Below, in pieces: positions 18,221-50,382 of a stretch of DNA of 64,000 nucleotides (position 1 is the stretch's first letter; every line of letters begins with the position of its first letter). Source of the stretch: Ruminococcus sp. (lineage in GTDB: Bacteria > Bacillota > Clostridia > Oscillospirales > Acutalibacteraceae). The position numbers and the translations under genes are program-made. The notes beneath the pieces were generated by a model. That model saw only the letters and a program-made list of their open reading frames with translations. It was not told the origin of the DNA and made no database searches. The stretch spans positions 6,303-70,302 of the forward strand of contig JAZQAF010000016.1 of assembly GCA_045545015.1 (NCBI GenBank). The letters run 5' to 3'.

Positions 18221-18268
18221 AATAATCTTAATCATAAATAACAATACTCATTAACGGAGGAATGTAAA

Positions 18269-19582: not shown

Positions 19583-19629
19583 TAAACCGCTGACTGCTTC
19601 TCTATTCTTACAGAAATTCGGTGTTTATA

Positions 19630-21228: not shown

Positions 21229-21264
21229 AAATTTCAAATACCACTATGAAAGAGGGCAAACTCT

Positions 21265-22239: not shown

Positions 22240-22266
22240 TCCACAATATCCCATTGAGGTGAAAAT

Positions 22267-23154: not shown

Positions 23155-23195
23155 CATAATCACTGCTTCAAATAAACAAATTGAGAGGTACAACC

Positions 23196-25096: not shown

Positions 25097-25165
25097 TTTT
25101 CTTAACGAATACTTTTCTTTATCATATTTCCAGTTATAACCATTAAAGAAAGGAGGCACAGATAG

Positions 25166-27480: not shown

Positions 27481-27494
27481 AAGGAGTGTGTATT

Positions 27495-28382: not shown

Positions 28383-28408
28383 TAAATTACTTTTGTAAGA
28401 GGTGCATT

Positions 28409-28969: not shown

Positions 28970-28985
28970 TTAATGGAGTATTGAT

Positions 28986-30005: not shown

Positions 30006-30034
30006 ACTAAGATTTACATACAGGAGATATAATT

Positions 30035-32028: not shown

Positions 32029-32044
32029 TATAAAGAGGTATAGT

Positions 32045-32569: not shown

Positions 32570-32573
32570 CCAA

Positions 32574-32604
32574 AAAGCTCCGCAGAGATTTTCTGCGGAG
32601 CTTT
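32574..32604. terminator. Bidirectional terminator between the convergent glycan operons
   Basis: Perfect 13-bp stem AAAGCTCCGCAGA/TCTGCGGAGCTTT. Confidence 0.85.
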
Positions 32605-32621
32605 CTTAATCTACATACTAT

Positions 32622-33833: not shown

Positions 33834-33838
33834 TGCAG

Positions 33839-36538: not shown

Positions 36539-37686
36539 TATTTATACCACTTGTTTTTAATCACGGGAGCCAAGGACATAGGTCCCTGCTCGTAAGTATT
36601 ATCTTCTTTGTTACTTCGTTTTACAAATTCCACAAATCTCTCTGCAGCAACCTCTGCCGAGTATTCCTTGCGAACAGTATCAAAGGCTTTTCTGCCAAGA
36701 GACTCTCTGAGGGCTTTGTCTTCTGCAAGACACAGAAGCTTTCTTTTCATATCCTTTAAGCTGCCGTATCTGTAAATAAGTCCGTTTTCCTTATCCCTGA
36801 TAAGGAACGGCACCGAGCCCATAGCACTGCTTGCAAGCACTGCACAGCCCTCGCTCATTGCCTCATTAATAACTGCACCCCAGCCCTCACGATAGCCGCT
36901 GGTCATCATAAGTATGTCTGCTGACGTCATATTCTCTCTGACCTTGTCTGGTGACATTGTACCGAGAAAGTTTACATTACCCTCAAGGTCAAGGTGTCTG
37001 ACGAGAGCTCTCAGCTTACTCTCGCATTCGCCCTCGCCTATAATATCAAGGTTAAAATCTATGTTGTTCTTTCTGAGAATGGTCAATGCCCTTATGGCAT
37101 CCTGAGCTCTTTTCAGTTTAATCATCCTACCCACCCAGAGAATACGGAGTGTAGGGTTATTTCTCTGAGGATACTCCGTTCTTTCGCTCACCTGAGGAAA
37201 GTAGCCCCACCTGAGACACTTTGAGGTATCAAAGGAACAGAGCGAAAGATCAAGGGGCAGAAATGCGCTGGCACAAAGAATATAAACCGGTCTTTCGTTG
37301 TGCTTAAGTATTCGCTCGTAGATCTTCTTCTTAACTGAGGGAATGAATCTTCTCCACAGACCTTTTTTCAGGGATCGCTCTGAAAAAATAAAAGAAAGCT
37401 TGTCTTTCTTGAGGCGAAAGTCTATATAACTGTTGGGACAAGAACCGAAGATTACGGCATCACTTTCCAGAAGGATCTCCCTGAGCTTTTCCTTTGCAAA
37501 ACCTTTTTCGTATGCTCTGACCACGAAGTCATACTTTTCATTCATATCCTCGTAGCCCAGACTTAGTCTTGAATCAGAGATACGTGATGTAGCTACAAAG
37601 CAGAAATCGTCACATCTCTTGCGAAGCTCCTCGCAAAGAGAGAGCTGATGATGATTAAGATAACAAGATACAAAAGCTACTCTCAT
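36538..37686 (-). CDS. GT4 glycosyltransferase
   Basis: WVGRM, EGWGAVINEAMS; start reassigned to ATG 37686, which overlaps the upstream stop (ATGA). Confidence 0.88.
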   Translation of the reverse strand: MRVAFVSCYLNHHQLSLCEELRKRCDDFCFVATSRISDSRLSLGYEDMNEKYDFVVRAYEKGFAKEKLREILLESDAVIFGSCPNSYIDFRLKKDKLSFIFSERSLKKGLWRRFIPSVKKKIYERILKHNERPVYILCASAFLPLDLSLCSFDTSKCLRWGYFPQVSERTEYPQRNNPTLRILWVGRMIKLKRAQDAIRALTILRKNNIDFNLDIIGEGECESKLRALVRHLDLEGNVNFLGTMSPDKVRENMTSADILMMTSGYREGWGAVINEAMSEGCAVLASSAMGSVPFLIRDKENGLIYRYGSLKDMKRKLLCLAEDKALRESLGRKAFDTVRKEYSAEVAAERFVEFVKRSNKEDNTYEQGPMSLAPVIKNKWYK

Positions 37687-38771
37687 AAATAAACATACCT
37701 TTCCAGATAGTCCCAATAGAAATGGTACTCTCCCAGCTGAGTCATTACACGATATAAAAACAGTGCTCCACAGGCTACTACACAAATAGTCACTGCGATA
37801 TTTCTCACTGTCTTGGTCTTCTGTCGTGTTATTCCGTTTGAAAGCACCACCATCAGCACGAAGGAGTAGTAGTAGCTTGTTCTCTCCATAACCGTAACTG
37901 TATAGCGCAGAGAATAAAGACAAAGGCCGATAAGAAGCATCATCAGTTCAAGTTCATGTTCTTTGATAAACTCGTTGTTCCAGCTCCAGATAAGATACCA
38001 AAGAATCAATGCGCCCATATACACCATAATGGGGACAATTCCCGCAAGGGCGTATCCTTGGTATGCCATCGTATATTCTCTTTCCAAAAAGTCATTTCCG
38101 AATGCTACAATATCATCAAGGAAAACGAGCATAAGAAGTGTCATCACAACTGCTGAAAGAACAAACTTTTTGGTAAACTCCATCCTTTTGAGAATAAATA
38201 CCCCGAAGAAGATCAACACCGTTGAATGGATGGTAGATGCCAGCAAAATTGTTATTATTGCCAGAATATCCCATATATGCATATTCTTCTTCAGCATCTC
38301 CAAAGCAATGATACTCATACAGATGGCGATCGCCTGACGAAAGCCCGTAAGGAAAAACTGCCACGGCCCCAGACAGATGTAAATAATTACGCCGAGGAAT
38401 ACGCTGTCACAGTTGCGGTAAATATACCAGAATACAACTGCAGTAGTGAAGGCAGCCTCAAAATAAACAATAAAATACTTTGAGGGAAAAAGTATGGCAA
38501 GCACCTTATTGAGAACCAGATATCCATCCTCAAAGGCACTGTGCTCAATCATCTCGCTCAGAGGCATTCTCATAGCCCTTATGTACCAGTTATAGTAATT
38601 GCGAAGATCTGCACTATTGGTCAGAATAGCACTTCTGCTGCCTACTACAAATACAATAATGGCAAAGCTCAGACCTAAAAATATTAGATTTTTCTTTTTC
38701 TCGCCCAATGCATCCGGAATCAAGCACCTGACTCCGATTATGCCAAGGAGCATAAAAAGCCAAACCCACAT
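37683..38771 (-). CDS. EpsG-family Wzy polymerase 2
   Basis: Polytopic; ADLRNYY, EDGY, TGFRQAIA, TIHST, MERTSYYY. Confidence 0.85.
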   Translation of the reverse strand: MWVWLFMLLGIIGVRCLIPDALGEKKKNLIFLGLSFAIIVFVVGSRSAILTNSADLRNYYNWYIRAMRMPLSEMIEHSAFEDGYLVLNKVLAILFPSKYFIVYFEAAFTTAVVFWYIYRNCDSVFLGVIIYICLGPWQFFLTGFRQAIAICMSIIALEMLKKNMHIWDILAIITILLASTIHSTVLIFFGVFILKRMEFTKKFVLSAVVMTLLMLVFLDDIVAFGNDFLEREYTMAYQGYALAGIVPIMVYMGALILWYLIWSWNNEFIKEHELELMMLLIGLCLYSLRYTVTVMERTSYYYSFVLMVVLSNGITRQKTKTVRNIAVTICVVACGALFLYRVMTQLGEYHFYWDYLERYVYL

Positions 38772-38786
38772 AATATCTCCTGAAAA

Positions 38787-39977
38787 TCAGTTTAATAATT
38801 CTTTGTAAATATCTATATACTCTTTGAATCTTACTTTTCGGTCAAATTCAAGACCCCTCTGTCTGCAGAACTCTCTTTTAATTTTACCTTTTTTCACCTG
38901 CTGTGCAGCCTCATAGAGTGCTTTTGTATCGCCCTTGGGAACAACTATACCGCATTCCTCGGTGAGTGATTCAGAACAACCGCCTGTTCTGAAAGTGACA
39001 ACAGGTACACCGCAGGCAAGCGCCTCAACATTTATCATGGAGAAGGTGTCCTGCATTGTGGGATTTATAAATACATCAGCCATAGAATAGACAAGGCTTA
39101 ATTCTTCTCTGCTGTTTGTAGCCGGAAGAACTGTGATATTGTCGGGGATAGTCACATCTTTATCTGCAAGGGAAAGAAGTACGATATGCTCATCATCTTT
39201 GAGCATGTTTGAAAGTTCAAGAAAATGCCTTCCACCCTTTGTTCCTTTAAAGCTACTGACGATTCCAAGATAAATGAACTTGTCCTCAAGCCCCAGCTTC
39301 TTTCTGAGGTCTGACTCTCTGGGTCTGAAGCTTTCGGTATCAATTCCGTTATGTATGGTTGTCACCGGATATTTTCCGAGAAAAGACTGCCTTGCAAGGT
39401 TTGAAAGCCAGTTTGAGGGTGTGACAACATGCATCTTCTCAAGACTTGTGAAAATCTCTCTCTTGTCTTTGAGATTCCTCTTCGATCTGTCGAAAAACCA
39501 TGAATCGGGATATTTTCTCCGCTGTGGACAGTTTCCGCAGCTATTTTTCCAGCCGTCGCAGCCTATATAGTCAAAATGGGAGCAATGACCTGTAAAGGAC
39601 CAGCAATCGTGCAAAGTCCAGACCACGGGTATATTCTTTTCCTTAAGGTATTTAAAAAGTATTTCTATGTTGATATAGTGACCGTGAATATTCTGAAGAT
39701 TCACAACATCGGGGGAAACCTTGTCAATAAACCTGAGGGCTTTTCTTGTTGCCCTTTTATTGTAAAAACCGTGTCTTCCGAAAAGTCGGGTCATCAGAAT
39801 GCTCCACTTGAGGGAGAAGGGAGTATTGGTGACAAAGACGTTAGGGCTGTCAAATTTATCCTGTCCGGTAATCACATAGGTCTCTATGCCGTACTCCTTA
39901 AAAAGATCTTCGCAATCCTTGACAATCTTTCCCGTGCTGCCTTTTTCGTAAACGGAATTTATCTGAAGAACCTTCAC
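38787..39977 (-). CDS. GT4 glycosyltransferase (WcaC-like)
   Basis: GSTGKI, NIHGHY, WTLHDCWSFTGHC, PSNWL, DTFSMINVEALACG. Confidence 0.9.
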   Translation of the reverse strand: MKVLQINSVYEKGSTGKIVKDCEDLFKEYGIETYVITGQDKFDSPNVFVTNTPFSLKWSILMTRLFGRHGFYNKRATRKALRFIDKVSPDVVNLQNIHGHYINIEILFKYLKEKNIPVVWTLHDCWSFTGHCSHFDYIGCDGWKNSCGNCPQRRKYPDSWFFDRSKRNLKDKREIFTSLEKMHVVTPSNWLSNLARQSFLGKYPVTTIHNGIDTESFRPRESDLRKKLGLEDKFIYLGIVSSFKGTKGGRHFLELSNMLKDDEHIVLLSLADKDVTIPDNITVLPATNSREELSLVYSMADVFINPTMQDTFSMINVEALACGVPVVTFRTGGCSESLTEECGIVVPKGDTKALYEAAQQVKKGKIKREFCRQRGLEFDRKVRFKEYIDIYKELLN

Positions 39978-40001
39978 GTCTGTCTCTCCTTTCCCAAATA
40001 T

Positions 40002-41309
40002 TTAGTCATTATTAATGCCTGAAACCTCTGTCAGAGTATCTCTGAAGAGGGCAGTGATTTTTTCTCTGCTGTGATTCCGCATTCCGCATTCACGGGCTTT
40101 TCTTCCGTACTCAGAAACCTTCTGAGAATCATCACAGAGAGCATAGAGCTTTTCCTTTATCTCTTCACGATTGGTGGCACATATTGCCGCATCCTCTTTT
40201 ATCAGATAATCCATAGGAGCGATATCTCTGCAGCCTACAGCAAATACACAGGCTCCGCTTTTGAAATAGTCCGTAAGCTTCGTTGAAAAACTAAGTCTTG
40301 CGGCATTTTTATGTCTGCCACTTAAGGCCTCTGCAAAAAGAGTTATGTCGGAAGCCTTCTGAATCTCTTCTACCTTATCTGCAGTTACGCTTCCGCAGAA
40401 TCGGTTACCTCCCTCTGAGAGAAGTCTCTCAAACTCTCCTTTGGGAGTGTCTGTGGAATAGACCTCAAAGCGGATCCGTTCTTTATCCCTATTTATCTCC
40501 GATACAGCCTTTGCTACTTCTGCAACTGTTTTGTCCCTGCCGATACCAAGCTTTCCGGTATAGACCATTCTCAAAGGATACTCGGGAGTAGTATTGCTTT
40601 CAGCATCAGCACTAAAGTCAACTGCTCTTGTGAGTATCAGACTGTCGGTTTTAAAAATTCTGTCATACTCCTCTTTCTGCTTGGGAGCTATTACGAAGAG
40701 CTTATGACATTGCTCCATTATCTTCTTAACTTTTTTTCTGAGCCAGAATCTATGTATATATGCCAGCGGATTCAAACCGCAGGTCTTGTAGGAGTAATTA
40801 TCGTCGGAAAGATAACACACCACAGGCTTCTTCGTTTTCTTTATGATGTAGAGTTGGAGCCTTGCCATATACACAAGAGGATAAACGGGTACAAACAGAA
40901 GCTCGGGATCATAGTTCTTGATAAACTCATCAAGCTCCTTTGTCTTCCACTTACCCATAAGCCAGACCATCTCTCTCATCAGAGACATAAGCATACTGTG
41001 CTTGCGGCTGTATCTTTTCTGCTCCTCTTTAAGCTCACGGCTTTCAGAGGATGTAAGCTCTCCCTTTGTATTCTCAACAACAGAAGAGGTGGAAACACTT
41101 TTCCTGAAAACACTTTTTAACACTGCATTTTCATTTATTCTGAAGAATCTGTCACACACAGAGGTCTGAGGAAGTCCTGCTTTGGTGTATATCTGGGCTA
41201 CCTTATCCTTATCCCATGAAGAAAAAAACTCAGGCAAGGTTCGCACCCCGCCTTTATCCTGCCAGACATTGACAGTAGTGACAAGAACTCTTGGTAATCT
41301 CTTATCCAT
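40002..41309 (-). CDS. Divergent GT-B fold glycosyltransferase (GT4-like)
   Basis: MVYTGKLGIGR, LSFSTKLTDY, position among GT genes. Confidence 0.6.
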   Translation of the reverse strand: MDKRLPRVLVTTVNVWQDKGGVRTLPEFFSSWDKDKVAQIYTKAGLPQTSVCDRFFRINENAVLKSVFRKSVSTSSVVENTKGELTSSESRELKEEQKRYSRKHSMLMSLMREMVWLMGKWKTKELDEFIKNYDPELLFVPVYPLVYMARLQLYIIKKTKKPVVCYLSDDNYSYKTCGLNPLAYIHRFWLRKKVKKIMEQCHKLFVIAPKQKEEYDRIFKTDSLILTRAVDFSADAESNTTPEYPLRMVYTGKLGIGRDKTVAEVAKAVSEINRDKERIRFEVYSTDTPKGEFERLLSEGGNRFCGSVTADKVEEIQKASDITLFAEALSGRHKNAARLSFSTKLTDYFKSGACVFAVGCRDIAPMDYLIKEDAAICATNREEIKEKLYALCDDSQKVSEYGRKARECGMRNHSREKITALFRDTLTEVSGINND

Positions 41310-41317
41310 ACTGACTC

Positions 41318-42313
41318 CTATCCGTTTATTTTATCAATAATTCCTACCGCAAACAGCGTAAGCCTTAAACCGAAAATACGATGAAAAGTGCCTATGAGCC
41401 TGGGGCGCTTGCTCTCGGCGTATTTAAAGAGAGATGAGAGTGCCTTGATTCTTTTGAGAAACTGCTTTTTCTTCTTGTCCTTTACTCTGCCGTAACTGAG
41501 ATACAGGTTTGAGTAAAGCTTTGCAAGAGACCCGAGAAGACCTCTTCTGAGACCTTCATCAATATCTGTAGCAGGGTCCTCGTAACGCTCCTTGTACTTT
41601 TCAAGGGTAATAAGCAGGCTTTCCATGTTTATGAGGCTTCCCGCATTTGTGACAGAGCCTTCACGCTGTCTGTATGCAATAAACTCACGGTCAACGAGAG
41701 CTATTCTCTCTGCCTTTTCCATAATGCGGTAGCTCCAGTCAACATCCTCACAACGAAGGGTCTCGTCAAACTCGATGCCGTTATGGGTAAGCAAGCTTCT
41801 TCTTATGGTTTTTGTCCAGGCAGATGCATAGTAGGCATCACGCTTTACAAGCTCGGGAATAAGCTTTGCGGTATCGGTTATATTCATTACCTCCGAAAAA
41901 GAGTAACCGCACCTTTCAAACTGTGGCTCACGATGCTCGTAGTACTTGTTGTATCTGTACATTACCACGTCCGCTTTACTTTCCTCTATCTTCTTATGAA
42001 GCGCCTCCAGATAGTCGTCCTTGCTCACAAAGTCATCGCTGTCTATGAAGATTATGTACTCTCCCTTTGCATGGCGAAGACCAAAATTGCGTGCCGTTGA
42101 CTGCCCGCCGTTTTCTTTTCTCAGTAAAACCACTCTGCTGTCTTTCTCTGTGTAACGCTTCACTATTTCGGCACTTTTATCTTTGGAGCCGTCATCAACT
42201 ATAACTATTTCAAAGTCAGACATACTCTGACAAAGGAGGCTGTCTATACACTCACCTATGTACCTTTCAACATTGTACATTGGAATTATTATACTGAAAA
42301 ACACAGGCGACAC
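41318..42313 (-). CDS. GT2 glycosyltransferase
   Basis: SIIIPMYN, VDDGSKD, IFIDSDD, CEDVDW. Confidence 0.92.
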   Translation of the reverse strand: MSPVFFSIIIPMYNVERYIGECIDSLLCQSMSDFEIVIVDDGSKDKSAEIVKRYTEKDSRVVLLRKENGGQSTARNFGLRHAKGEYIIFIDSDDFVSKDDYLEALHKKIEESKADVVMYRYNKYYEHREPQFERCGYSFSEVMNITDTAKLIPELVKRDAYYASAWTKTIRRSLLTHNGIEFDETLRCEDVDWSYRIMEKAERIALVDREFIAYRQREGSVTNAGSLINMESLLITLEKYKERYEDPATDIDEGLRRGLLGSLAKLYSNLYLSYGRVKDKKKKQFLKRIKALSSLFKYAESKRPRLIGTFHRIFGLRLTLFAVGIIDKING

Positions 42314-42341
42314 CTCCTCGGTACCCTTTATGGGTTATGTA

Positions 42342-44342
42342 CTACTTTTTACACTTCTGTTTCCTGATAACCTCTGTTACCTCGGCAATTTTCTCTACTG
42401 CCAGCTTGCGGTTCTCTTCAAACTGTTCGTCTGTCCAGCTTGCGGCTTCCTTTTCTCTTTCTCTCAGAAGCTCAAGCTCTTTACCCATATCCTTAACGGG
42501 GCGGCTGTTACCGACCTCATTGCGGAAGGTTCTGGAGAGAATTACCGATGTGGAACCGAGGCGCTTATGTTCACCCATGATAACATCGCTTTTTACAAGA
42601 CCTTCGCCGATCTTTGCGATTCCGCCGAAGCCATAGGGAATGCCTTTTCTTCTGAACTTTTCGCAGAGGCTCTCAACTGTGCCGTTTGCCAGTAATTCAA
42701 ACATAAAGGTCATATTAAGGCTTAAGTGCAGGTCATTGAGACCGATATAGACCTCGTCAATTCCCTCAAGGGAAAGTATCTCATCTACATTCTCAACACT
42801 CTCTTTTGTTTCAAAAAGAAGCACAGTCTTTACTCTGCCGCCTACAGCCTCAAGGAAAGTCTTTACTTCCTCACGGGTCTTGAAGTAAGGGAGCATAATA
42901 AGGTCGGCACCGTCTTTAATGATTCTGTCTATCTCAGCTGTGATACCTTCATGCACGGGATTACATCTTACAAGAAGCTGTGCTTTGCTTACTACCTTTC
43001 TCACCTTGCTTACATCATCAAGGCTTGAGTGAGACACCACTGTATCCAGATGACCCTGACGCTCTTCCTTGCCCATAATCTCAAGGTCGAGGAAAATGCG
43101 GTCAACACCTGCATTTTCTGCTTCTACGGCAGCCTTGGGATCTGAAGTAAGGTACATAAATTTCAGGTGTTCATCCTGCTTATTTAACAGTTTACAATAA
43201 TGGTTATAAATATTCTGGAGCATAATTGGACGAGCAAAGTATTTCTCTACTCGTTTTCTCGCCTCCTCGCTATATTTATTTCTGCGGCTTTCGTCCTTCA
43301 TCAGTCGAAGCATTTCTTCATAAAGCGACTTATAGTCATGAGAGGGAACGAGGATTCCTGATTCCTTGTTCACTATAACCTCACTGGGACCGGGAACATC
43401 TGTGGTGATTATGGGAAGAGCCATTGCCATTGCTTCCTGAAGTACCATGGAAAAGCCTTCTCTGTATGTGGGATTGATAAAGATATCTGTGGCAGCCATA
43501 AACTGTGCCACTTTATCTACACCCACAGCACCGGTAAACACAATGCTGCCGCAGCCTCTCGCCCATTTCATTACCTCTGCATCGGGAGGGTTGGTGGGAT
43601 CTTCCATTCCCACAAGGAGAAGCTTTGTGTTTTTCTCTTTTCTGATAAGCTCCTTGTAAGCAAGCAGAAGTTCTGTGATACCCTTATCTTTATTAAGTCT
43701 GCCTATGTAACTGAAAACCAGAGTGCCGTCATCCAAACCGTACTCTTCTCTTATAGCCTTTCTCCACCCTGGCTTTTTATTAATATCGTGAACAGCGAAA
43801 TCAACACCCACGGTGCCGCCCTTGCCGATAACGCTGATTTTGTCCTTCTTTGAAAGACCCTCGCTGATGGCAAGCTCTCTGTTCAAAGGGCTGGTTGAAA
43901 CTATATGTGTTGCTCCCTTGCAGGTGATCTTTTCGATCATCTTGAAGAAGAAGCGCTTGATGCCCTTAAAGCCCACATATCGGATACCCCACTGGCCGTA
44001 AACTCTCACGGGGATTTTCTTAAATCCACCTGCAAGAGTACAGCAAAGAGCCACATTGGGAGTTGAATACTGGATAATATCGAACTTTTCTTCCCTGAAG
44101 GCTTTTCTCAGCTCCTTGATACACCTGAGCATGGGACGGACTGAAATTCCTCTTTCCACTGACAGAGGAATTACCCTGGCAAATTCCTCGTGCTTCTCTT
44201 TAAAGCTTTGATTCATTTCACCGCACATAACGGTAACATCAAAGCCCTTCATAGAAAGGTTCTTTGCTGAATCGGACACAAATCTATCAAACGACGTTGT
44301 GATCGTTGTCACCATACATATCTTCGTGTTTTTCTGTATCAT
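42342..44342 (-). CDS. Fusion protein: CapM-like GT4 plus HpcH/HpaI aldolase/citrate-lyase-family domain
   Basis: GT4 (STP, GRLNKDKG, PTYREGFSMVLQEAMA) continues without a stop into LKFMYLTSDP..AGVDRIFLDLE..VRCNP..MLPYFKT..LLFET..IGLNDLH. Confidence 0.85.
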   Translation of the reverse strand: MIQKNTKICMVTTITTSFDRFVSDSAKNLSMKGFDVTVMCGEMNQSFKEKHEEFARVIPLSVERGISVRPMLRCIKELRKAFREEKFDIIQYSTPNVALCCTLAGGFKKIPVRVYGQWGIRYVGFKGIKRFFFKMIEKITCKGATHIVSTSPLNRELAISEGLSKKDKISVIGKGGTVGVDFAVHDINKKPGWRKAIREEYGLDDGTLVFSYIGRLNKDKGITELLLAYKELIRKEKNTKLLLVGMEDPTNPPDAEVMKWARGCGSIVFTGAVGVDKVAQFMAATDIFINPTYREGFSMVLQEAMAMALPIITTDVPGPSEVIVNKESGILVPSHDYKSLYEEMLRLMKDESRRNKYSEEARKRVEKYFARPIMLQNIYNHYCKLLNKQDEHLKFMYLTSDPKAAVEAENAGVDRIFLDLEIMGKEERQGHLDTVVSHSSLDDVSKVRKVVSKAQLLVRCNPVHEGITAEIDRIIKDGADLIMLPYFKTREEVKTFLEAVGGRVKTVLLFETKESVENVDEILSLEGIDEVYIGLNDLHLSLNMTFMFELLANGTVESLCEKFRRKGIPYGFGGIAKIGEGLVKSDVIMGEHKRLGSTSVILSRTFRNEVGNSRPVKDMGKELELLREREKEAASWTDEQFEENRKLAVEKIAEVTEVIRKQKCKK

Positions 44343-44587: not shown

Positions 44588-44884
44588 TTGAAGGGAATAG
44601 TTGAAGAAAGAGCTGTTAAACTTGGGGAATACATACTGGAAAAGAAAGCTACCGTACGACTTGCCGCAAAGACCTTTGGAATCAGCAAAAGCACAGTCCA
44701 CAAGGATGTGAGCCAGCGCCTGAGGAATCTGAATCCACTCCTCTACAGCGAGGTGAGAAAGGTGCTTCTCCTCAATAAGCAAGAAAGGCATCTCAGAGGT
44801 GGCATCGCCACAAGAAACAAATACCTTGAAATCTCCCGAAGAAAAAATCCTGACTCTGAAAAAATGCCTTTACTTTGGGAATAA
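44588..44884 (+). CDS. spoIIID: Sporulation transcription factor SpoIIID
   Basis: ATVRLAAKTFGISKSTVHKDV, NKQERHLRGG; TTG start after GGGAGA. Confidence 0.93.
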   Translation: MKGIVEERAVKLGEYILEKKATVRLAAKTFGISKSTVHKDVSQRLRNLNPLLYSEVRKVLLLNKQERHLRGGIATRNKYLEISRRKNPDSEKMPLLWE

Positions 44885-44897: not shown

Positions 44898-44960
44898 CTA
44901 TGATAGAATACGTATAGTGTTATTTTTTTGAAACTCAGGAAAATATAGGAGACACAGGAT

Positions 44961-46166
44961 ATGCGAAACATTCCATTTTCACCCCCTGACATTACCGATG
45001 CAGAGATTGATTCTGTTGTATCCGTACTCAAGTCAGGTTGGATCACCACAGGTCCCAAAACAAAACTTTTTGAAAGTCAGATAGCTGAATTCTGCCATAC
45101 AGAGAAGGCTGTTTGTCTCTCCTCTCAGACAGCCTGCGCAGAGATGACCCTGAGAATTCTCGGGGTTGGCCCCGGAGATGAGGTTATCGTTCCCTCATAC
45201 ACCTACACCGCTACAGCCTCAGTTGTGTGCCACATCGGCGCAAAGCCCGTTATCATCGACTGTCAGAAGGGCAGCTTTGAGATGGACTACGACAAGGTTG
45301 AGGCAGCAATAAACGAGAATACCAAGGTTATTATTCCTGTTGACCTTGCAGGTGTAATGTGCGACTACGACCGGATTTATGAGATAGTTGAGAGAAAAAA
45401 GCATCTCTTCAAGCCCACAAGCGAGCTTCAGGAAAAATACGGCAGAATCATCGTTATGTGCGACGGCGCTCACGCACTGGGTGCTTCAAGAAACGGCAAA
45501 ATGTGCGGCGAGGTTGCTGACTTTACAAATTTCAGCTTCCATGCAGTTAAGAACCTGACCACAGGTGAGGGCGGTGCCGTTACCTGGAAAAATGCCGCAG
45601 GCATTGATAATGATGAGCTTTACCGTCAGTATATGCTGTTTTCACTCCACGGTCAGACCAAGGACACCTATGCTAAAAACAAGGGCACTTCCTGGGAATA
45701 TGATGTAGTAAAAACTCAGTACAAATGCAATATGCCTGACATTCTGGCAGCTCTGGGTCTTGCTCAGCTGAATCGCTATAACGATATCCTCAATAGACGC
45801 CACGAGCTTATCAAGCGTTACAACGAGGCTTTTGCGGACCTGCCCGTAGAGGTGCTTAATCATGCATCTGAGGATCATCGCTCCAGCGGACATCTCTACT
45901 TTGTTCGATTCACAGGCAAGGACGAGGAATATCGTAACGCATTTTTCAAGAGAATGGCACAGAACGGCGTAATCTGCAACGTCCACTTCAAGCCTCTTCC
46001 CCTGCTTACCGCATACAAGCAGTTAGGTTATGATATCAAAGATTATCCCAACGCCTACGATATGTTCAAAAATCAGCTTACTCTGCCTCTTAACACAACA
46101 CTTTCAGATGAGGATGTAGAGTATCTTCTCAACACCTTCCGCAGGTGCATTGCTCAGCCCTATTGA
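44961..46166 (+). CDS. DegT-family C4 aminotransferase 2, WcfR / pneumococcal AATGal-type
   Basis: IPFSPPDIT, SGWITTGPKT, SFHAVKNLTT, LHGQTKD, YKCNMPD, NVHFKPLPLLTAYK. Confidence 0.9.
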   Translation: MRNIPFSPPDITDAEIDSVVSVLKSGWITTGPKTKLFESQIAEFCHTEKAVCLSSQTACAEMTLRILGVGPGDEVIVPSYTYTATASVVCHIGAKPVIIDCQKGSFEMDYDKVEAAINENTKVIIPVDLAGVMCDYDRIYEIVERKKHLFKPTSELQEKYGRIIVMCDGAHALGASRNGKMCGEVADFTNFSFHAVKNLTTGEGGAVTWKNAAGIDNDELYRQYMLFSLHGQTKDTYAKNKGTSWEYDVVKTQYKCNMPDILAALGLAQLNRYNDILNRRHELIKRYNEAFADLPVEVLNHASEDHRSSGHLYFVRFTGKDEEYRNAFFKRMAQNGVICNVHFKPLPLLTAYKQLGYDIKDYPNAYDMFKNQLTLPLNTTLSDEDVEYLLNTFRRCIAQPY

Positions 46167-46197: not shown

Positions 46198-46226
46198 CCG
46201 CCGCATTCACTTGCGGCGGATTTTTT
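46198..46226 (+). terminator. Terminator after aminotransferase 2
   Basis: CCGCCGCA/TGCGGCGG stem followed by TTTTTT. Confidence 0.8.
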
Positions 46227-46371: not shown

Positions 46372-47061
46372 ATGCTTACATACAAGGTTCTTATAGTAGA
46401 TGACGATGAAAACATCTGTAATCTTCTCAGACTTTATCTTGAAAAAGAGGGCTTTTTAACAGTTTGCGCCCACGACGGCAAGGAAGCCCTTAATCTTTTT
46501 GAAACAGAAAATCCCCATATGGTTCTCCTCGACATTATGCTGCCTGTGCTTGACGGCTGGCAGGTTTGCCGTGAGATCCGCAAGACTTCCCAGTGTCCCC
46601 TTATCATGCTCACCGCAAAAGGCGAGACCTTCGATAAGGTTCTGGGGCTGGAGCTTGGTGCTGACGACTATATCACAAAGCCCTTTGAGGCAAAGGAAGT
46701 TATAGCCCGAGTTCGTGCCGTGCTTCGCCGAACCACGCCTCAGGATGAGGAGATGTCCCATGAAGTTCATCTTCACAATCTGGACATCAACCTTGAAAAC
46801 TACGAGCTGCGTGTAAAGGGCGAACTTATAAACACTCCCCCAAAGGAGCTTGAACTGCTCTATTTTCTCGCAAGCAACCCCAACAAAATGTTTTCCAGAG
46901 ATCAGCTTCTGGATGTAGTCTGGGGCTTTGACTACTGCGGCGAGAGCCGTACCATAGATGTCCATATCAAGCGAATCCGTGAAAAGATAGATGGCGTTTC
47001 CGACAAATGGGAGCTTTCTACCGTCTGGGCAAGAGGCTATAAATTTGTGACCTATGATTAA
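46372..47061 (+). CDS. OmpR/PhoB-family response regulator
   Basis: VDDD, LLDIMLP, GADDYITKPF, RTIDVHIKRIR. Confidence 0.95.
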   Translation: MLTYKVLIVDDDENICNLLRLYLEKEGFLTVCAHDGKEALNLFETENPHMVLLDIMLPVLDGWQVCREIRKTSQCPLIMLTAKGETFDKVLGLELGADDYITKPFEAKEVIARVRAVLRRTTPQDEEMSHEVHLHNLDINLENYELRVKGELINTPPKELELLYFLASNPNKMFSRDQLLDVVWGFDYCGESRTIDVHIKRIREKIDGVSDKWELSTVWARGYKFVTYD

Positions 47062-48547
47062 TTCTATCAGAAATATACTCAGAAGCTCCGTTTTCAAACG
47101 GTTTCTGTTCCGAAGCATCTTGGTCACCTTTATCTGCGTTATTATTGCTATGGGGATCCTCTATTTTCCTGTAGCTCGATTTGTAAACAATGAAAGAGAA
47201 AAGACCATGCAGGAGAGAGCCTGTGAGGTCTCATCCTATATATCCGAAGCCTGTGATGGCAACCTTCACAGCATAAAGGCTGAGGACGAGCTTTTTTCTT
47301 CCTCTGTTACCACCATGGGCAAAGCAATGCACGCTTTGATAGTGCTTTGTGATAACGAAGGAAATGTCGTTTTTGCAGGAGACAACACCTCTGCTACCTT
47401 ACCTACAACACTTCCCCCTTCCTATATGCAGAAGCTCTATGAGGGAGATTTTATTGAGAAGGTAACCTTTGAAAGCGATCCTGACAACGTCTATTTCATT
47501 TCGGCTTCACAGATAACCTGTGAGAAATCCGGAACTGTTGGATACTGCCTTATACTTCAGACTGACTTATGGGCAGCCGACTACGTGCCTTCCTTCTTTA
47601 TGCTTTTTATCATCATAGTAATGCTGTCTGTGCTCTGTCTCTTCATTCTCTCTGCAGTGTTTGTGTTCAATACCTCCCGTCCCTTAAAGCAAATGGCTTA
47701 CGCTGCAAAACGCTTTGCCGTAGGCGACTTTGAAAGCAGGGTTTATGTAAACCGTGACGATGAGATAGGACTGCTTGCCACAGCCTTCAACGAAATGGCT
47801 GATTCCCTTGCTGCTTCTGAGGTAGTAAGACGAAATTTCGTAGCAAATGTATCTCACGAGCTCAAAACACCCATGACCACGATTGCCGGCTACATCGACG
47901 GAATTCTTGACGGCACCATCGGAAAGGACGACTTTGACCACTACCTGCTTATTGTCTCAAATGAAATCAAAAGACTTTCCCGACTGGTCACCTCAATGAT
48001 CTCCCTCTCAAAAATTGACAGCGGCGAGATCAAGGTGCATAAAAGAGTTTTTGAAATACAGCAGACCCTCTTCGACGTAATTCTGAGCTTCGAAAGTGAT
48101 ATAAGTAAAAAGAAGCTTAGAATCGAAGGACTTGAGATCGAAGATAACACCTGTGCCTTTGGCGACAGTGATCTCATTCATCAGGTTATATTCAATCTGG
48201 TTGAGAATGCTGTTAAATTCACCCCCGAGGGAGGCTACATCCGCTTCGGCATTGAAACCGAAGATTCCAAGGTGAAGTTTACCGTGGAAAACAGCGGAAA
48301 GGGTATTCTCCCTGAGGATCTCCGCCTTGTTTTTGATAAATTCTATAAGGCAGATAAATCAAGAAGTAAAGATAAAAACAGTATGGGTCTGGGACTTTAC
48401 ATTGCCCGTACCATCATACATCTTCACGAGGGAAGCATCAGTGCAGAAAGTGAGCCTGACAAGTACTGCAGATTTATCTTCTATATTGATGAAGCTCCCA
48501 AAAAATCCAAAGATATACCCGACGCCACCTATGAGGAGGATAATTAA
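47054..48547 (+). CDS. HAMP sensor histidine kinase
   Basis: Two TM helices, DEIGLLA, NVSHELKTP, NLVENAVKF, GLGL. Confidence 0.95.
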   Translation: MINSIRNILRSSVFKRFLFRSILVTFICVIIAMGILYFPVARFVNNEREKTMQERACEVSSYISEACDGNLHSIKAEDELFSSSVTTMGKAMHALIVLCDNEGNVVFAGDNTSATLPTTLPPSYMQKLYEGDFIEKVTFESDPDNVYFISASQITCEKSGTVGYCLILQTDLWAADYVPSFFMLFIIIVMLSVLCLFILSAVFVFNTSRPLKQMAYAAKRFAVGDFESRVYVNRDDEIGLLATAFNEMADSLAASEVVRRNFVANVSHELKTPMTTIAGYIDGILDGTIGKDDFDHYLLIVSNEIKRLSRLVTSMISLSKIDSGEIKVHKRVFEIQQTLFDVILSFESDISKKKLRIEGLEIEDNTCAFGDSDLIHQVIFNLVENAVKFTPEGGYIRFGIETEDSKVKFTVENSGKGILPEDLRLVFDKFYKADKSRSKDKNSMGLGLYIARTIIHLHEGSISAESEPDKYCRFIFYIDEAPKKSKDIPDATYEEDN

Positions 48548-50382
48548 TGAACAACGAATTCGAAAATTTACAGAATATTCCGCCTGAGGATGTGGAGGAT
48601 AATTCCACCGAAGTTTTCTCAGAGTCGGAGTTTGCACCCGAAACACAACCAAAAGCTCATGAGGTAACATCGCCTGAGAGCGAGAGTGATGTACCCGAGA
48701 ACTCTTTTCATGAGGAAACAAAGGATTTTGAAGAGACACCTGCCGTAATTTCCGCACCTGAAAAAGTCGCCGCACCTGAAGAAGTCTCCGCACCTGAAGA
48801 GGTCCGCACTCCCGAGGAAAGCTTCGCTCCCTCTGAATCTCCTGCACCTGCTGCTTTCACCTTTGAAGAAGAAAAGGCTCACGCAAATCAGGAATATGTG
48901 CCCCGAGAGATTCCCTCTGGAAATTCAGCGGTAGGCTATAATGCTCCCACACCTCCCACAAATCCCGTACCGCCTTACACTCATAATTATCCTCAGGGTG
49001 TATATAACTATCAGAGACCCGTATATCCCCCTCAGAATCAGACCCCACCCTATGCACCCTATGGCACTCCCAATACTCCCCCCTATCAGATGCCTCCTGC
49101 CTTTTACCCTGCACCACCTGTGCAGAAGCATTCAAAAGGATCAAAGGCTCTCGTAATTATACTGTGGATTCTGGTTGCACTCTTTGCTATAGGCTTCTTC
49201 GTAATGTGCGGATACGTGATATCAAATTACCCCGAAGCACCAAAAAAGGAAACAACTGCACCCACACTTTTCAAGGAAGATACTGATAAAGACACACCCT
49301 CCACAGCACCCAAGGAGGAAGAGACAGAGCCTCAGAGTGACATTGTTGAGGGAGGAGTGATCCCCAATGATGATAAGACTGACTACTCCTCTGACAGCTC
49401 AATAATTCTTGTGAATCCTCCCAGAGACAAAGATGACAACGCAAAATACACCACTCAGTACGCATATAATCAGATTTCAGATTCCGCTGTGGGCATTGTA
49501 TGCTACACAGGCAAGGTAACCGATGATAGTGAGCCTGCATCTCAGGGCACGGGCATTGTCATTACCAAGGATGGCTACATTGCCACAAACAGCCATGTTA
49601 TCGGTGACAGCAGAAATCTCTACAAGGTCAGGGTTGTCCTCAATGACGGCACTACCTATGAGGCAAAGATCATAGGCTATGACACCAGAACAGACCTTGC
49701 TGTTCTCAAAGTAAGTGCCACAGATCTGGAGCCTGCCGTTTTCTGCGATTCCGACAAAACCGAGATCGGTGATGATGTTATTGCCATCGGAAATCCCGGC
49801 GGTATGGACTTCCAGAATTCCCTCACAAAGGGTATTATTTCCGCTAAGGACAGAGAGCTTTCCCTCTCAGCTCAGGTTTCCTACATTCAGACCGATGCCG
49901 CTATCAATCCCGGAAATTCAGGCGGACCTCTCTGCAATATGTACGGTCAGGTTATCGGAATCAACACCGCAAAGATCTCCGATTCCTCCTACGAGGGAAT
50001 GGGCTTTGCAATCCCCAGCCAGACTGCAAAGAAGGTAATTGACGATCTGATCCATCAGGGCTATGTAGGCGGCAGAGTACGCATCGGAATCTCAGGACAG
50101 GCTGTGACCGAGGCAATGAAGCAGTACTACGCACTTCCTGCAGGAATCCTCATCGGAGAAATAACCGAGGATGGTCCCTGCGACGGTTCAGGACTTAAGA
50201 CAAACGACGTTATGACCGCCATTGACGGAGAGAAGGTAGAAACCTTCAAGGATGTCTATGCAATACTCGAAAAGCACTCAGCAGGCGATAAGGTCACCTT
50301 ATCAATATATCGTTCAGATACGGACGAGGAGCTTGAAATCGAGATAACACTTCAGGCTGACGAGGGTCAGACACAGCAGTAA
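48547..50382 (+). CDS. htrA: HtrA/DegP-family protease with long low-complexity N-terminus, TM helix and PDZ domain
   Basis: TNSHV, DLAV, DAAINPGNSGGPL. Confidence 0.9.
   Translation: MNNEFENLQNIPPEDVEDNSTEVFSESEFAPETQPKAHEVTSPESESDVPENSFHEETKDFEETPAVISAPEKVAAPEEVSAPEEVRTPEESFAPSESPAPAAFTFEEEKAHANQEYVPREIPSGNSAVGYNAPTPPTNPVPPYTHNYPQGVYNYQRPVYPPQNQTPPYAPYGTPNTPPYQMPPAFYPAPPVQKHSKGSKALVIILWILVALFAIGFFVMCGYVISNYPEAPKKETTAPTLFKEDTDKDTPSTAPKEEETEPQSDIVEGGVIPNDDKTDYSSDSSIILVNPPRDKDDNAKYTTQYAYNQISDSAVGIVCYTGKVTDDSEPASQGTGIVITKDGYIATNSHVIGDSRNLYKVRVVLNDGTTYEAKIIGYDTRTDLAVLKVSATDLEPAVFCDSDKTEIGDDVIAIGNPGGMDFQNSLTKGIISAKDRELSLSAQVSYIQTDAAINPGNSGGPLCNMYGQVIGINTAKISDSSYEGMGFAIPSQTAKKVIDDLIHQGYVGGRVRIGISGQAVTEAMKQYYALPAGILIGEITEDGPCDGSGLKTNDVMTAIDGEKVETFKDVYAILEKHSAGDKVTLSIYRSDTDEELEIEITLQADEGQTQQ
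48751..48822 (+). repeat. In-frame 18-bp tandem repeat (xAPEEV), about 4 copies
   Basis: tccgcacctgaaaaagtc/gccgcacctgaagaagtc/tccgcacctgaagaggtc/cgcactcccgaggaaagc. Confidence 0.8.

What the first reader, a model, noticed from the sequence alone, without database searches (positions are those of the whole stretch)
44961..46166. WcfR/AATGal-type aminotransferase with no N-acyltransferase: possible zwitterionic polysaccharide in a clostridial genome
Seen: as recalled, the sequence closely follows the pneumococcal AATGal aminotransferase (IPFSPPDIT, GWITTGPKT, LHGQTKD, NVHFKPLPLLTAYK). No PglD-type hexapeptide or GNAT acyltransferase is recognisable in the locus. Sources of negative charge are present: TviB/TviC for HexNAcA and two pyruvyl-transferase-family genes. 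Established: dehydratase plus WcfR plus PGT give AATGal with a free amine in B. fragilis PSA (with pyruvylated Gal), pneumococcal Sp1, and S. sonnei O-antigen (wbgX/Y/Z with wbgT/U). These are zwitterionic, and PSA and Sp1 are immunomodulatory. Inference: at least one product is zwitterionic, and this enzyme competes with the aldolase for the same 4-keto intermediate.
Basis: partly seen in the sequence, partly recalled or inferred. Interest (0 to 1): 0.65.

Follow-up and report, generated by a model that had tools for sequence, protein, structure and literature searches.

The report
Core AATGal-type sugar aminotransferase gene
This gene is a well-conserved relative of the pneumococcal and Bacteroides enzyme that makes the positively charged sugar AATGal. 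It is a core gene of a large gut Ruminococcus-like genus rather than part of the variable capsule island beside it, so a charged surface glycan is plausible but not shown.

Summary
ORF 44961-46166 (+) is an intact 401-aa DegT-family aminotransferase, and all four quoted motifs are present. It aligns without gaps to pneumococcal Spr1654 (PDB 6EWJ, E 2.8e-152, about 55% identity). PglE scores only E 1e-22. No hexapeptide, GNAT, PglD-type or formyl transferase lies in the window.

- **Core gene, not island gene.** The gene is monocistronic in a conserved spoIIID-AT-RR-HK-htrA backbone. It occurs in 75 of 81 genomes of the genus, as does the PglF-type dehydratase at 12154-14055 (77 of 81). The 31-kb glycan island between them is a variable insertion; in 15 relatives only spoIIID separates the two genes.
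- **Partner lies elsewhere.** In 47 of 65 loci outside the genus clade, the neighbouring phosphoglycosyltransferase best matches this genome's contig C9 enzyme, not the window's. The C9 enzyme is paired with a core Wzy_C (WaaL/TacL-family) protein.
- **A PglD exists.** It sits in its own PglE-PGT-PglD operon on contig C2 and occurs in only 12 of 81 genus genomes.
- **Family membership does not prove a free amine.** Eight of those 65 loci carry an adjacent acyl or formyl transferase.

A free-amine AATGal glycoconjugate is likely; a zwitterionic island polysaccharide is unproven. wcfR-based genome screens for such polysaccharides are already published.

The parts
44961..46166 (+). Spr1654/WcfR-type PLP sugar 4-aminotransferase (predicted UDP-AATGal synthase), 401 aa
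   Evidence: Pfam DegT 3.6e-91. PDB 6EWJ E 2.8e-152 with a gapless alignment. Catalytic Lys197, Asp168 and the other residues checked against the Spr1654 paper are conserved (PMC5936713).
44869..44897 (+). Sigma-70-like promoter candidate (TTTACT-17-TATAAT) for the aminotransferase
   Evidence: Consensus scan, 10 of 12 matches. This is a consensus match only, not evidence of function.
44947..44951 (+). Ribosome-binding site AGGAG, 9 nt before the ATG
   Evidence: Read from the sequence.
46198..46226 (+). Intrinsic terminator-like hairpin (8 pairs, 7 of them GC) plus T-run, directly after the stop codon
   Evidence: Together with the promoter candidate it makes the gene look monocistronic.
44588..44884 (+). 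spoIIID homologue, conserved upstream neighbour
   Evidence: ORF. PF12116 is recorded on the syntenic gene in relatives. tblastn gives 63-89% identity in 26 loci.
12154..14055 (-). Membrane-anchored PglF/CapD-type UDP-GlcNAc 4,6-dehydratase, 633 aa; supplies the 4-keto substrate
   Evidence: PF02719 1e-124 plus CoA_binding_3. It is the only long-form copy in the genome and is present in 77 of 81 genus genomes.
14387..15022 (+). Small PglC-like phosphoglycosyltransferase of the island (211 aa); sugar specificity unknown
   Evidence: PF02397 3.9e-68. Scores 163 bits to PglC structures 8G1N and 8E37.
14387..44342 (.). About 30-kb variable glycan island inserted between the two core genes (plus-strand operon to 32569, minus-strand operon 32622-44342)
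   Evidence: Pfam annotation. GC is lower than in the flanks. The dehydratase-to-aminotransferase distance ranges from 0.54 to 33 kb across the genus.
42342..44342 (-). GT4 fused to an HpcH/HpaI-family domain; first gene of the minus-strand operon, which has no PGT of its own
   Evidence: Conserved next to spoIIID-AT at 56-74% identity in at least 12 relatives.
26296..27480 (+). Polysaccharide pyruvyl transferase 1 (possible negative charge)
   Evidence: PF04230 5.8e-30.
35363..36538 (-). Polysaccharide pyruvyl transferase 2
   Evidence: PF04230 1.4e-25.
18269..23154 (+). TviB-like dehydrogenase, Asn-synthase-like protein, TviC-like epimerase and TupA ATP-grasp: HexNAc uronic acid synthesis with probable amidation
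46372..50382 (+). Response regulator, histidine kinase and HtrA protease; conserved downstream neighbours
   Evidence: Synteny seen.

Best explanation
**Enzyme (shown by homology).** The gene encodes a PLP-dependent nucleotide-sugar 4-aminotransferase of the Spr1654 type.

**Reaction (inferred).** It takes UDP-2-acetamido-2,6-dideoxy-xylo-hexos-4-ulose and, with glutamate as donor, makes UDP-AATGal (2-acetamido-4-amino-2,4,6-trideoxygalactose). The substrate would come from the only PglF-type dehydratase in the genome, at window 12154-14055.

**Genome organisation (shown).**
- The gene is a monocistronic, single-copy, near-universal gene of its genus. It lies in a conserved spoIIID-AT-RR-HK-htrA backbone.
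- It and the dehydratase bracket a glycan island that is a variable insertion.
- Its usual gene partner is a small PGT whose best match here lies on contig C9 (165893-166648). That PGT sits next to a Wzy_C (WaaL/TacL-family) membrane protein (C9:164418-165857), which is also core in the genus.

**Pathway (inferred).** UDP-AATGal is loaded on undecaprenyl phosphate by the C9 PGT. It becomes the reducing-end sugar of a conserved envelope glycoconjugate that the Wzy_C protein ligates or assembles. This is analogous to the pneumococcal teichoic-acid route.

**Charge (inferred).** The 4-amine probably stays free, because PglD-type acetyltransferases are rare accessory genes in this genus.

**Not shown.** Whether the island's polymers also start with AATGal, and whether any product is zwitterionic.
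For: **Enzyme identity.** 6EWJ scores 511 bits with no gaps, against 194 for ArnB and 84 for PglE. Residues Tyr84, Asp170, His196, Val198, Lys199, Glu205, Gln234, Lys236, Lys241, Lys257, Asn342, His344 and Phe345 of Spr1654 are identical in this protein at an offset of -2 (PMC5936713). Both insertions called unique to Spr1654 (150-164 and 212-217) are retained: the alignment to Spr1654 is gapless, while the ArnB alignment has gaps at those places.

**Pathway logic.** PglF plus WcfR plus WcfS suffices to give undecaprenyl-PP-AATGal in E. coli (PMC13063421).

**Core status in 81 genus genomes.** Aminotransferase 75 (42 of 43 high-quality genomes); dehydratase 77; Wzy_C protein 76; PglD family above cut-off only 12.

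**Bracketing.** Aminotransferase-to-dehydratase gaps on the same contig are 0.54-0.83 kb in 15 genomes, 5-7.5 kb in 6, and 19.5-33 kb in 7, this genome included.

**Synteny.** spoIIID-AT-RR-HK-htrA is kept in 26 loci while the upstream glycan genes differ.

**Partner PGT.** In 47 of 65 loci outside the genus clade, the PGT within 300 bp best matches the C9 PGT at 43-57% identity. Those loci include records labelled Lachnospiraceae, Mogibacterium, Gemella, Bacteroides and Prevotella. In 151 family genomes, 46 of 54 with the aminotransferase also have the C9-type PGT, against 13 of 97 without it.

**Wzy_C link.** PGT-AT-Wzy_C or PGT-Wzy_C adjacency is seen in more than 20 genera. gpsA|PGT-Wzy_C synteny holds in 5 of 5 close relatives tested. 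TacL, the pneumococcal ligase for AATGal-ended teichoic acid chains, carries a Wzy_C domain (PMC5727136).
Against: - No enzyme assay exists for this protein. Even for Spr1654 the full reaction with the 4-keto sugar has not been demonstrated (PMC5936713).
- I could not fetch Spr1655, WcfS, WcfR or TacL sequences. The equivalences 'C9 PGT = AATGal PGT' and 'Wzy_C = TacL-like' rest on gene neighbourhood and shared Pfam family only. The Wzy_C protein has no sequence match in the PDB and no NCBIfam hit.
- Family membership does not guarantee a free amine. Eight of 65 loci outside the genus clade have an adjacent GNAT, PglD-type, formyl or hexapeptide transferase.
- This genome has a PglD and 13 GNAT hits elsewhere.
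- The Wzy_C protein is only 32-52% identical in most of the genus. That fits a partner of variable glycans better than a strictly conserved one.
Confidence: 0.6

Rival explanations
1. The window's dehydratase, this aminotransferase and the window's own PGT (14387-15022) start the island's polysaccharide with free-amine AATGal. Pyruvate ketals or uronic acids supply negative charge, giving a PSA/Sp1-like zwitterionic capsule. This can be true alongside the best explanation.
For: - The island sits exactly between the two AATGal-synthesis genes, and the PGT is 330 bp from the dehydratase.
- Two pyruvyl transferases are in the island. B. fragilis PSA pairs AATGal with pyruvylated galactose (PMC13063421).
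- Pyruvyl transferases lie 3-6 kb from the aminotransferase in some unrelated loci: L046, L094, L095.
- Most genus genomes lack PglD, so AATGal may be the main 4-keto-derived sugar open to island PGTs.
- There is no acyltransferase in the window.
Against: - The window PGT is PglC-like (163 bits to PglC, against 82 for the C9 PGT).
- PGTs that best match it accompany the aminotransferase in only 7 of 65 loci. Four of those 7 carry an adjacent N-acyltransferase, against 2 of 47 for the C9 type.
- This genome can also make an N-acetylated 4-amino sugar through its PglE/PglD set.
- The island is a variable insertion, absent between the two genes in 15 relatives.
- The uronic acids are probably amidated.
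Confidence: 0.35
2. The 4-amine is acylated after transamination, so the sugar in the glycan is a neutral 2,4-diacylamido-trideoxyhexose and nothing zwitterionic results. The acyl donor enzyme could be the C2 PglD, one of the genome's GNATs, or an ATP-grasp or amide ligase.
For: - A PglD-family enzyme exists in the genome.
- Orthologues of this aminotransferase at 56-60% identity are directly coupled to a GNAT (L086, L103, L107, L126), a PGT-GNAT fusion (L111), a PglD-type enzyme (L121) or a formyltransferase (L053).
- The genome has 13 GNAT hits, one of them about 650 bp beyond the window end.
Against: - The PglD sits in its own operon with a PglE-like aminotransferase and a PGT.
- PglD is found in only 12 of 81 genus genomes, while the aminotransferase is in 75 of 81.
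- None of 26 genus-clade loci, and only 2 of 47 loci with a C9-type PGT neighbour, has an acyl or formyl transferase within 1.6 kb.
- The two characterised systems of this enzyme type, pneumococcal teichoic acid and B. fragilis PSA, keep the amine free (PMC5936713, PMC13063421).
Confidence: 0.25
3. The enzyme acts on a different keto-sugar, for example a dTDP-4-keto-6-deoxyhexose from the island's RmlA/RmlB or a UDP-4-keto-pentose as ArnB does. In that case it does not make AATGal.
For: - The next-best structural relatives are ArnB enzymes (E 1e-54 to 1e-56).
- RmlA, RmlC and RmlB are present in the window without an RmlD.
Against: - The Rml genes are followed by their own TlmJ-like aminotransferase (30035-31168).
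- The match to Spr1654 is far stronger than any other and includes its two signature insertions and its modelled UDP-sugar contacts.
- The gene is tightly linked to PglF-type dehydratases across phyla: within 3 kb in 24 of 65 loci outside the genus clade.
Confidence: 0.05

Closest known systems
Spr1654 (SP_1837) of Streptococcus pneumoniae, PDB 6EWJ/6EWQ/6EWR; proposed UDP-AATGal-forming aminotransferase of teichoic acid synthesis
   Same: About 55% identity over 393 residues with no gaps. The catalytic Lys and Asp, the modelled sugar and UDP contacts, and both signature insertions are the same. Both are housekeeping-type genes outside a capsule operon, and neither has an adjacent acetyltransferase (PMC5936713).
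   Different: In pneumococcus, by my recollection of the teichoic-acid literature, the PGT Spr1655 is the adjacent gene. Here the gene stands alone beside spoIIID and a two-component system, and the likely partner PGT is on another contig. The host is a spore-forming Clostridia gut anaerobe. The product and its polymer are unknown here.
WcfR/WcfS/UngD2 of Bacteroides fragilis polysaccharide A
   Same: The three-step logic is the same: 4,6-dehydratase, 4-aminotransferase, then a small PGT giving undecaprenyl-PP-AATGal. In B. fragilis too the dehydratase is encoded away from the operon (PMC13063421). Loci from records labelled Bacteroides and Prevotella carry 57-59% identical aminotransferases followed by a C9-type PGT, the same order as wcfR-wcfS.
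   Different: I could not retrieve WcfR itself, so orthology is inferred. In PSA, wcfR and wcfS are the last genes of the capsule operon. Here the aminotransferase is a genus core gene, and the island beside it has a different, PglC-like PGT.
PglF/PglE/PglD/PglC of Campylobacter jejuni and EpsC/N/M/L of Bacillus subtilis (di-N-acetylbacillosamine)
   Same: They use the same 4-keto intermediate and the same enzyme superfamily. This genome also carries such a set on contig C2: a PglE-like aminotransferase (E 6.6e-78 to 1O61), a PGT and a PglD-family enzyme.
   Different: The window enzyme is a different subfamily (84 bits to PglE). It has no coupled acetyltransferase, and by homology it should give the galacto product rather than the gluco product.
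TacL (RafX, SPD_1672), the pneumococcal lipoteichoic acid ligase, and WaaL O-antigen ligases
   Same: The protein encoded next to the C9 PGT carries the same Pfam Wzy_C domain. Like TacL, it is genetically tied to an AATGal-priming pathway (PMC5727136).
   Different: No direct sequence similarity to TacL was tested or found. It is 480 aa against 397 aa for TacL. Its function (ligase, polymerase or protein O-oligosaccharyltransferase) is unknown.

Membership tests
Spr1654/WcfR-type UDP-4-keto-6-deoxy-GlcNAc 4-aminotransferase (AATGal synthase) | DegT/DnrJ/EryC1 fold-type I PLP aminotransferase with catalytic Lys and PLP-binding Asp | tested here: met
   PF01041 3.6e-91. Lys197 in HAVKN and Asp168 align to Lys199 and Asp170 of Spr1654.
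Spr1654/WcfR-type UDP-4-keto-6-deoxy-GlcNAc 4-aminotransferase (AATGal synthase) | Closer to Spr1654 than to any other characterised sugar aminotransferase, and retains its two signature insertions (150-164, 212-217) | tested here: met
   511 bits to 6EWJ against 194 (ArnB), 127 (PseC) and 84 (PglE). The alignment to 6EWJ is gapless, while the ArnB alignment has gaps at both insertion sites (PMC5936713).
Spr1654/WcfR-type UDP-4-keto-6-deoxy-GlcNAc 4-aminotransferase (AATGal synthase) | Genomic coupling to a PglF-type 4,6-dehydratase and a small monotopic PGT | tested here: met
   Across 65 loci outside the genus clade, a PGT lies within 300 bp in 54 and a long CapD within 3 kb in 24. In this genome the three genes are dispersed but all present.
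Spr1654/WcfR-type UDP-4-keto-6-deoxy-GlcNAc 4-aminotransferase (AATGal synthase) | Product has the galacto (axial 4-amine) configuration | not testable with these tools
   Needs an enzyme assay with NMR of the UDP-sugar.
PglE/EpsN-type bacillosamine aminotransferase | Best similarity to PglE and an operon partner of PglD type | tested here: not met
   PglE (1O61) scores only E 1.4e-22 over a partial alignment. No PglD is in the window. The paralogue on contig C2 does meet both criteria.
AATGal-type zwitterionic polysaccharide locus (B. fragilis PSA, pneumococcal Sp1) | AATGal synthesis genes present | tested here: met
   Dehydratase at 12154-14055 and aminotransferase at 44961-46166.
AATGal-type zwitterionic polysaccharide locus (B. 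fragilis PSA, pneumococcal Sp1) | The 4-amine remains unacylated | tested here: inconclusive
   No acyl or formyl transferase is in the window and PglD is rare in the genus. However, a PglD and GNATs exist elsewhere in this genome, and some orthologues are coupled to acyltransferases.
AATGal-type zwitterionic polysaccharide locus (B. fragilis PSA, pneumococcal Sp1) | An AATGal-using initiating PGT belongs to the same polysaccharide locus | tested here: inconclusive
   The window PGT is PglC-like. The PGT type that normally neighbours this aminotransferase is on contig C9.
AATGal-type zwitterionic polysaccharide locus (B. fragilis PSA, pneumococcal Sp1) | A negatively charged group in the same repeat unit | not testable with these tools
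   Pyruvyl transferase genes are present. Assigning them to an AATGal-containing repeat needs chemistry. The uronic acid genes are interleaved with putative amidating enzymes.
Pneumococcal-type (type IV) teichoic acid pathway | Spr1654 orthologue, an AATGal-1-P transferase and a Wzy_C-domain ligase | tested here: inconclusive
   The orthologue is present. A conserved PGT-Wzy_C pair is present. Neither could be compared with Spr1655 or TacL.
Pneumococcal-type (type IV) teichoic acid pathway | Ribitol-phosphate and phosphocholine machinery (TarI/J, LicA-D, TacF) | tested here: inconclusive
   Two LicD-family genes and a TagF-like gene exist on contigs C1 and C14. The rest was not searched.

The most novel reading that the evidence does not exclude
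The PGT-(aminotransferase)-Wzy_C module may be a previously undescribed minimal AATGal-anchored glycoconjugate system of Clostridia. It is compact and embedded among housekeeping genes in several genera of this family, and it is split but universal in this genus. Under this reading, a conserved undecaprenyl-PP-AATGal primer is elaborated by variable island glycosyltransferases. A fast-evolving WaaL/TacL-like ligase then transfers the product to a membrane glycolipid or a protein. Every member of a major gut starch-degrading genus would then carry a free-amine, lipoteichoic-acid-like or O-glycan surface structure.
Probability: 0.3. Interest if true: 0.65.

Novelty: new member of a known kind. 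Interest (0 to 1): 0.42.

Why it matters
AATGal with a free amine is the positive charge in B. fragilis PSA and pneumococcal Sp1, both of which are reported to modulate T cells. It is also the anchoring sugar of pneumococcal teichoic acids.

This work shows that the two genes for its synthesis are core genes of a large gut Ruminococcus-like genus, and that they bracket a variable glycan island. The question therefore shifts from one strain's capsule to a conserved envelope feature of the whole genus.

It also cautions that screens based on wcfR homology alone overcall free-amine sugars. About one locus in eight outside this genus couples the same enzyme type to an N-acyl or N-formyl transferase.

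The general idea of wcfR-type genes marking candidate zwitterionic polysaccharides in diverse gut bacteria is already published, so the finding as stated is not new in kind.

Tried and rejected
- **Phylogeny with named WcfR, WbgX, PglE and SpsC.** Not possible. I could not obtain those sequences as references. The one genome-contig scan used less conserved peptides and returned no Streptococcus or B. fragilis record. I used bit scores against solved, characterised enzymes instead.
- **WbgX.** The Shigella sonnei copy lies on a virulence plasmid, so I did not fetch it.
- **Neff et al. 2016 (the wcfR screen).** Not held under either its DOI or its PMC id. I cite it only through PMC10167101.
- **Ddl-like ATP-grasp at 16037-17095 as an amide ligase acylating the 4-amine.** Rejected. 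It is the only D-Ala-D-Ala ligase in the genome, so it is most likely the housekeeping enzyme.
- **First tblastn context scan.** It suggested that no acyltransferases lie near any orthologue. A more sensitive phmmer scan with 20 queries from this genome overturned that for 8 loci, and Pfam confirmed them.
- **Wzy_C protein.** No PDB sequence match at E <= 1 and no NCBIfam family. I ran no further search on it, because a WaaL-like fold would not tell a ligase from a polymerase or an oligosaccharyltransferase.
- **Contig C14 as a teichoic-acid locus.** It holds TagF-like and LicD genes, a third pyruvyl transferase and CotH. This was not decisive.
Full report
**1. The observation**

The ORF at 44961-46166 (+) is real and intact: 401 aa, an ATG start, and AGGAG 9 nt upstream. 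Pfam assigns it to DegT/DnrJ/EryC1 at 3.6e-91.

Against all PDB chains the best match is 6EWJ at E 2.8e-152 and 511 bits. Residues 3-395 align to 11-403 without a single gap, and 216 of 393 positions are identical by my count of the printed alignment, about 55%. 6EWJ is Spr1654 of S. pneumoniae, the aminotransferase proposed to form UDP-AATGal for teichoic acid (PMC5936713).

The residues that paper names are identical here at an offset of -2. They are Tyr84, Asp170, His196, Val198, Lys199, Glu205, Gln234, Lys236, Lys241, Lys257, Asn342, His344 and Phe345. The two insertions the paper calls unique to Spr1654 (150-164 and 212-217) are retained. The ArnB alignment shows gaps at exactly those places.

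Other characterised enzymes score far lower: ArnB 194 bits, PseC 127, PglE 84. The enzyme therefore groups with the AATGal type, not with PglE.

One caveat applies. For Spr1654 itself only the glutamate half-reaction was shown; the reaction with the 4-keto sugar was not (PMC5936713). For the analogous WcfR, PglF plus WcfR plus WcfS yields undecaprenyl-PP-AATGal in E. coli (PMC13063421).

**2. No acyltransferase in the locus**

This holds for the window. Whole-genome scans with TIGR03570 (PglD/NeuD), PF00132 (hexapeptide), PF00583 (GNAT) and PF00551 (formyltransferase) give no real hit within C16:6303-70302. The nearest GNAT is about 650 bp past the window end. Pfam on all ORFs of at least 100 aa agrees.

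The genome does hold a true PglD-family enzyme, at C2:57208-57795 (218 bits, cut-off 160.8). It sits in the operon aminotransferase-PGT-PglD. That aminotransferase is PglE-like, at E 6.6e-78 to 1O61. The genome thus carries both routes from the 4-keto sugar.

The window's 633-aa dehydratase is the only PglF-type (long, membrane-anchored) copy. The other PF02719 protein is a 351-aa soluble form.

**3. Anatomy around the gene**

Upstream lies a 98-aa spoIIID homologue (44588-44884). A TTTACT-17-TATAAT site follows at 44869-44897. A strong hairpin plus T-run (46198-46226) comes directly after the stop codon. The gene looks monocistronic. Downstream are a response regulator, a histidine kinase and HtrA.

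Close relatives keep spoIIID-AT-RR-HK-htrA while the divergent glycan genes upstream differ from genome to genome. These are MAGs labelled Ruminococcus sp. or Oscillospiraceae, with the aminotransferase 82-94% identical.

**4. Core genes bracketing a variable island**

Counts in 81 species genomes of the genus:

| Gene | Genomes with it | High-quality genomes |
|---|---|---|
| Aminotransferase | 75 of 81 | 42 of 43 |
| Long dehydratase | 77 of 81 | 42 of 43 |
| Wzy_C protein (see section 5) | 76 of 81 | 41 of 43 |
| PglD family above cut-off | 12 of 81 | 8 of 43 |

The first three are single copy in almost every genome.

Where the dehydratase and aminotransferase share a contig, the gap between them falls into three classes:
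- 0.54-0.83 kb in 15 genomes, with room only for spoIIID;
- 5-7.5 kb in 6 genomes;
- 19.5-33 kb in 7 genomes, including this one at 30.9 kb.

The 30-kb glycan island at 14387-44342 also has lower GC than its flanks. It is therefore a variable insertion between two conserved genes. The aminotransferase is not an island gene by descent.

**5. The usual partner**

I collected 91 non-duplicate loci holding an orthologue.

In the 65 loci outside the genus clade, a small PGT lies within 300 bp in 54:
- In 47 it best matches this genome's contig C9 PGT (C9:165893-166648) at 43-57% identity.
- In only 7 it best matches the window's PGT.

These loci come from records labelled Lachnospiraceae, Acutalibacteraceae, Mogibacterium, Gemella, Paenibacillus, Bacteroides and Prevotella. 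A long dehydratase lies within 3 kb in 24 of the 65.

In a sample of 151 genomes of the family, 54 have the orthologue. Of those, 46 also have the C9-type PGT. Among the 97 without the orthologue, 13 have that PGT, and 11 of those carry a second aminotransferase type (35-39% identical), which is adjacent to that PGT in the five pairs I compared by coordinates.

In this genome the C9 PGT is followed by a 480-aa Wzy_C-domain protein, among housekeeping genes (gpsA, tsf, spoIIR). PGT-Wzy_C or PGT-AT-Wzy_C adjacency recurs in more than 20 genera. In one Eubacteriales MAG the trio stands alone among tRNA synthetase and alanine racemase genes. The gpsA|PGT-Wzy_C arrangement is syntenic in 5 of 5 close relatives.

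TacL is the pneumococcal ligase that moves AATGal-ended teichoic acid chains to a glycolipid, and it is a Wzy_C-domain protein (PMC5727136). That makes a ligase role attractive, but I could not compare the sequences. The protein has no PDB or NCBIfam match. Within the genus it is mostly only 32-52% identical, against 67-94% for the aminotransferase. That is typical of proteins that handle variable glycans.

**6. Is the amine free?**

A first tblastn pass found no PglD-type gene near any orthologue. A more sensitive phmmer scan, confirmed by Pfam, found acyl or formyl transferases within 1.6 kb in 8 of the 65 loci outside the genus clade:
- a GNAT in L086, L103, L107 and L126;
- a PGT-GNAT fusion in L111;
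- a PglD-type enzyme in L121;
- a formyltransferase in L053;
- a hexapeptide protein in L089.

Belonging to this enzyme family does not by itself prove a free amine.

The pattern is informative. Four of the 7 loci with a window-type (PglC-like) PGT have such a gene, against 2 of 47 with the C9-type PGT and none of the 26 genus-clade loci. The numbers are small and the loci are not independent. PglD is absent from about 85% of genus genomes that keep the aminotransferase. I therefore put a free amine at roughly 0.6-0.65.

**7.

The enzymology is supported. The step from there to a zwitterionic island product is not:
- The window PGT is PglC-like (163 bits to PglC, against 82 for the C9 PGT). 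It may use the N-acetylated sugar from the C2 enzymes, or another sugar.
- The minus-strand operon (32622-44342) has no PGT of its own and begins with the GT4-HpcH fusion next to the aminotransferase. It could build on an AATGal primer, but this is speculation.
- The proposed uronic-acid charges are doubtful. An Asn-synthase-like protein sits between the TviB-like and TviC-like genes, and a TupA ATP-grasp follows. The pyruvyl transferases remain possible charge sources.
- I found no evidence that the HpcH domain competes for the 4-keto sugar.

**8. Known or new**

Screening genomes for wcfR orthologues to predict AATGal-type zwitterionic polysaccharides has been done on more than 8000 genomes. 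It found candidates in diverse orders (described in PMC10167101, citing Neff et al. 2016, which I could not read). The finding as stated is a new member of a known kind.

What may be new is threefold: the genus-wide core status of the pathway, its bracketing of a variable island, and the conserved PGT-(AT)-Wzy_C module. These are comparative-genomic inferences and need chemistry.

Noticed in passing
G000 contig C2:55400-59650 (locus L015:11316-15645): A complete PglE-like aminotransferase, small PGT and PglD-family acetyltransferase operon heads a second glycan locus with GT4s, a Wzy_C protein, a flippase and two more hexapeptide transferases. It has no dehydratase of its own, so it must share the window's.
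   Followed up: partly
window 27486-31168: RmlA, RmlC and RmlB are followed by a second DegT aminotransferase whose best solved relative is TlmJ (E 5e-45). No RmlD is in the window. This points to a 4-amino-4,6-dideoxy-L-hexose, again with no acyltransferase nearby, so it could be a second free amine.
   Followed up: partly
window 15064-17095: The only D-Ala-D-Ala ligase gene of the genome lies inside the glycan island, directly after a D-2-hydroxyacid dehydrogenase. The arrangement resembles VanH-VanA. It scores 351 bits to the VanG model, below that model's cut-off.
   Followed up: partly
window 42342-44342 and loci L063, L067-L082: The GT4-HpcH/HpaI fusion is conserved at the aminotransferase-proximal end of the island in at least 12 relatives (56-74% identity). 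In one relative the HpcH domain is a separate 299-aa protein.
   Followed up: partly
G000 contig C10:45500-54000 (locus L016:5541-13974): A third glycan locus holds a nucleotidyltransferase, a 4,6-dehydratase, a 446-aa DegT-family (E1 dehydrase-like) protein and a 599-aa thiamine-diphosphate enzyme. This set recalls branched-chain or 3,6-dideoxy sugar pathways such as yersiniose.
   Followed up: no
L111:9196-10536: A 447-aa PGT-GNAT fusion lies directly after an orthologue of the aminotransferase. It recalls the bifunctional Neisseria PglB.
   Followed up: partly
L053:8436-9413: A formyltransferase gene abuts an orthologue of the aminotransferase in another genome of the family.
   Followed up: partly
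family genomes G030, G034, G036, G069, G085, G087, G104, G109, G121, G127, G136: A second aminotransferase type (35-39% identical to this one) occurs in 11 genera that have the C9-type PGT but lack the orthologue. Its coordinates place it beside that PGT in the five pairs compared. It may be an alternative amino-sugar route feeding the same PGT type.
   Followed up: no
G000 contig C14:1400-13900 (locus L145): A cluster holds a GT2, an Acyl_transf_3 protein, a TagF-like glycerophosphotransferase, LicD, a third pyruvyl transferase, an epimerase, a CotH kinase-like protein and an NTP_transf_5 protein. It could be a teichoic-acid-like or a spore-surface glycan set.
   Followed up: partly
window 8432-10126: A 564-aa FtsW/RodA/SpoVE-family protein carries an N-terminal FHA domain and lies next to a penicillin-binding transpeptidase gene.
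   Followed up: no
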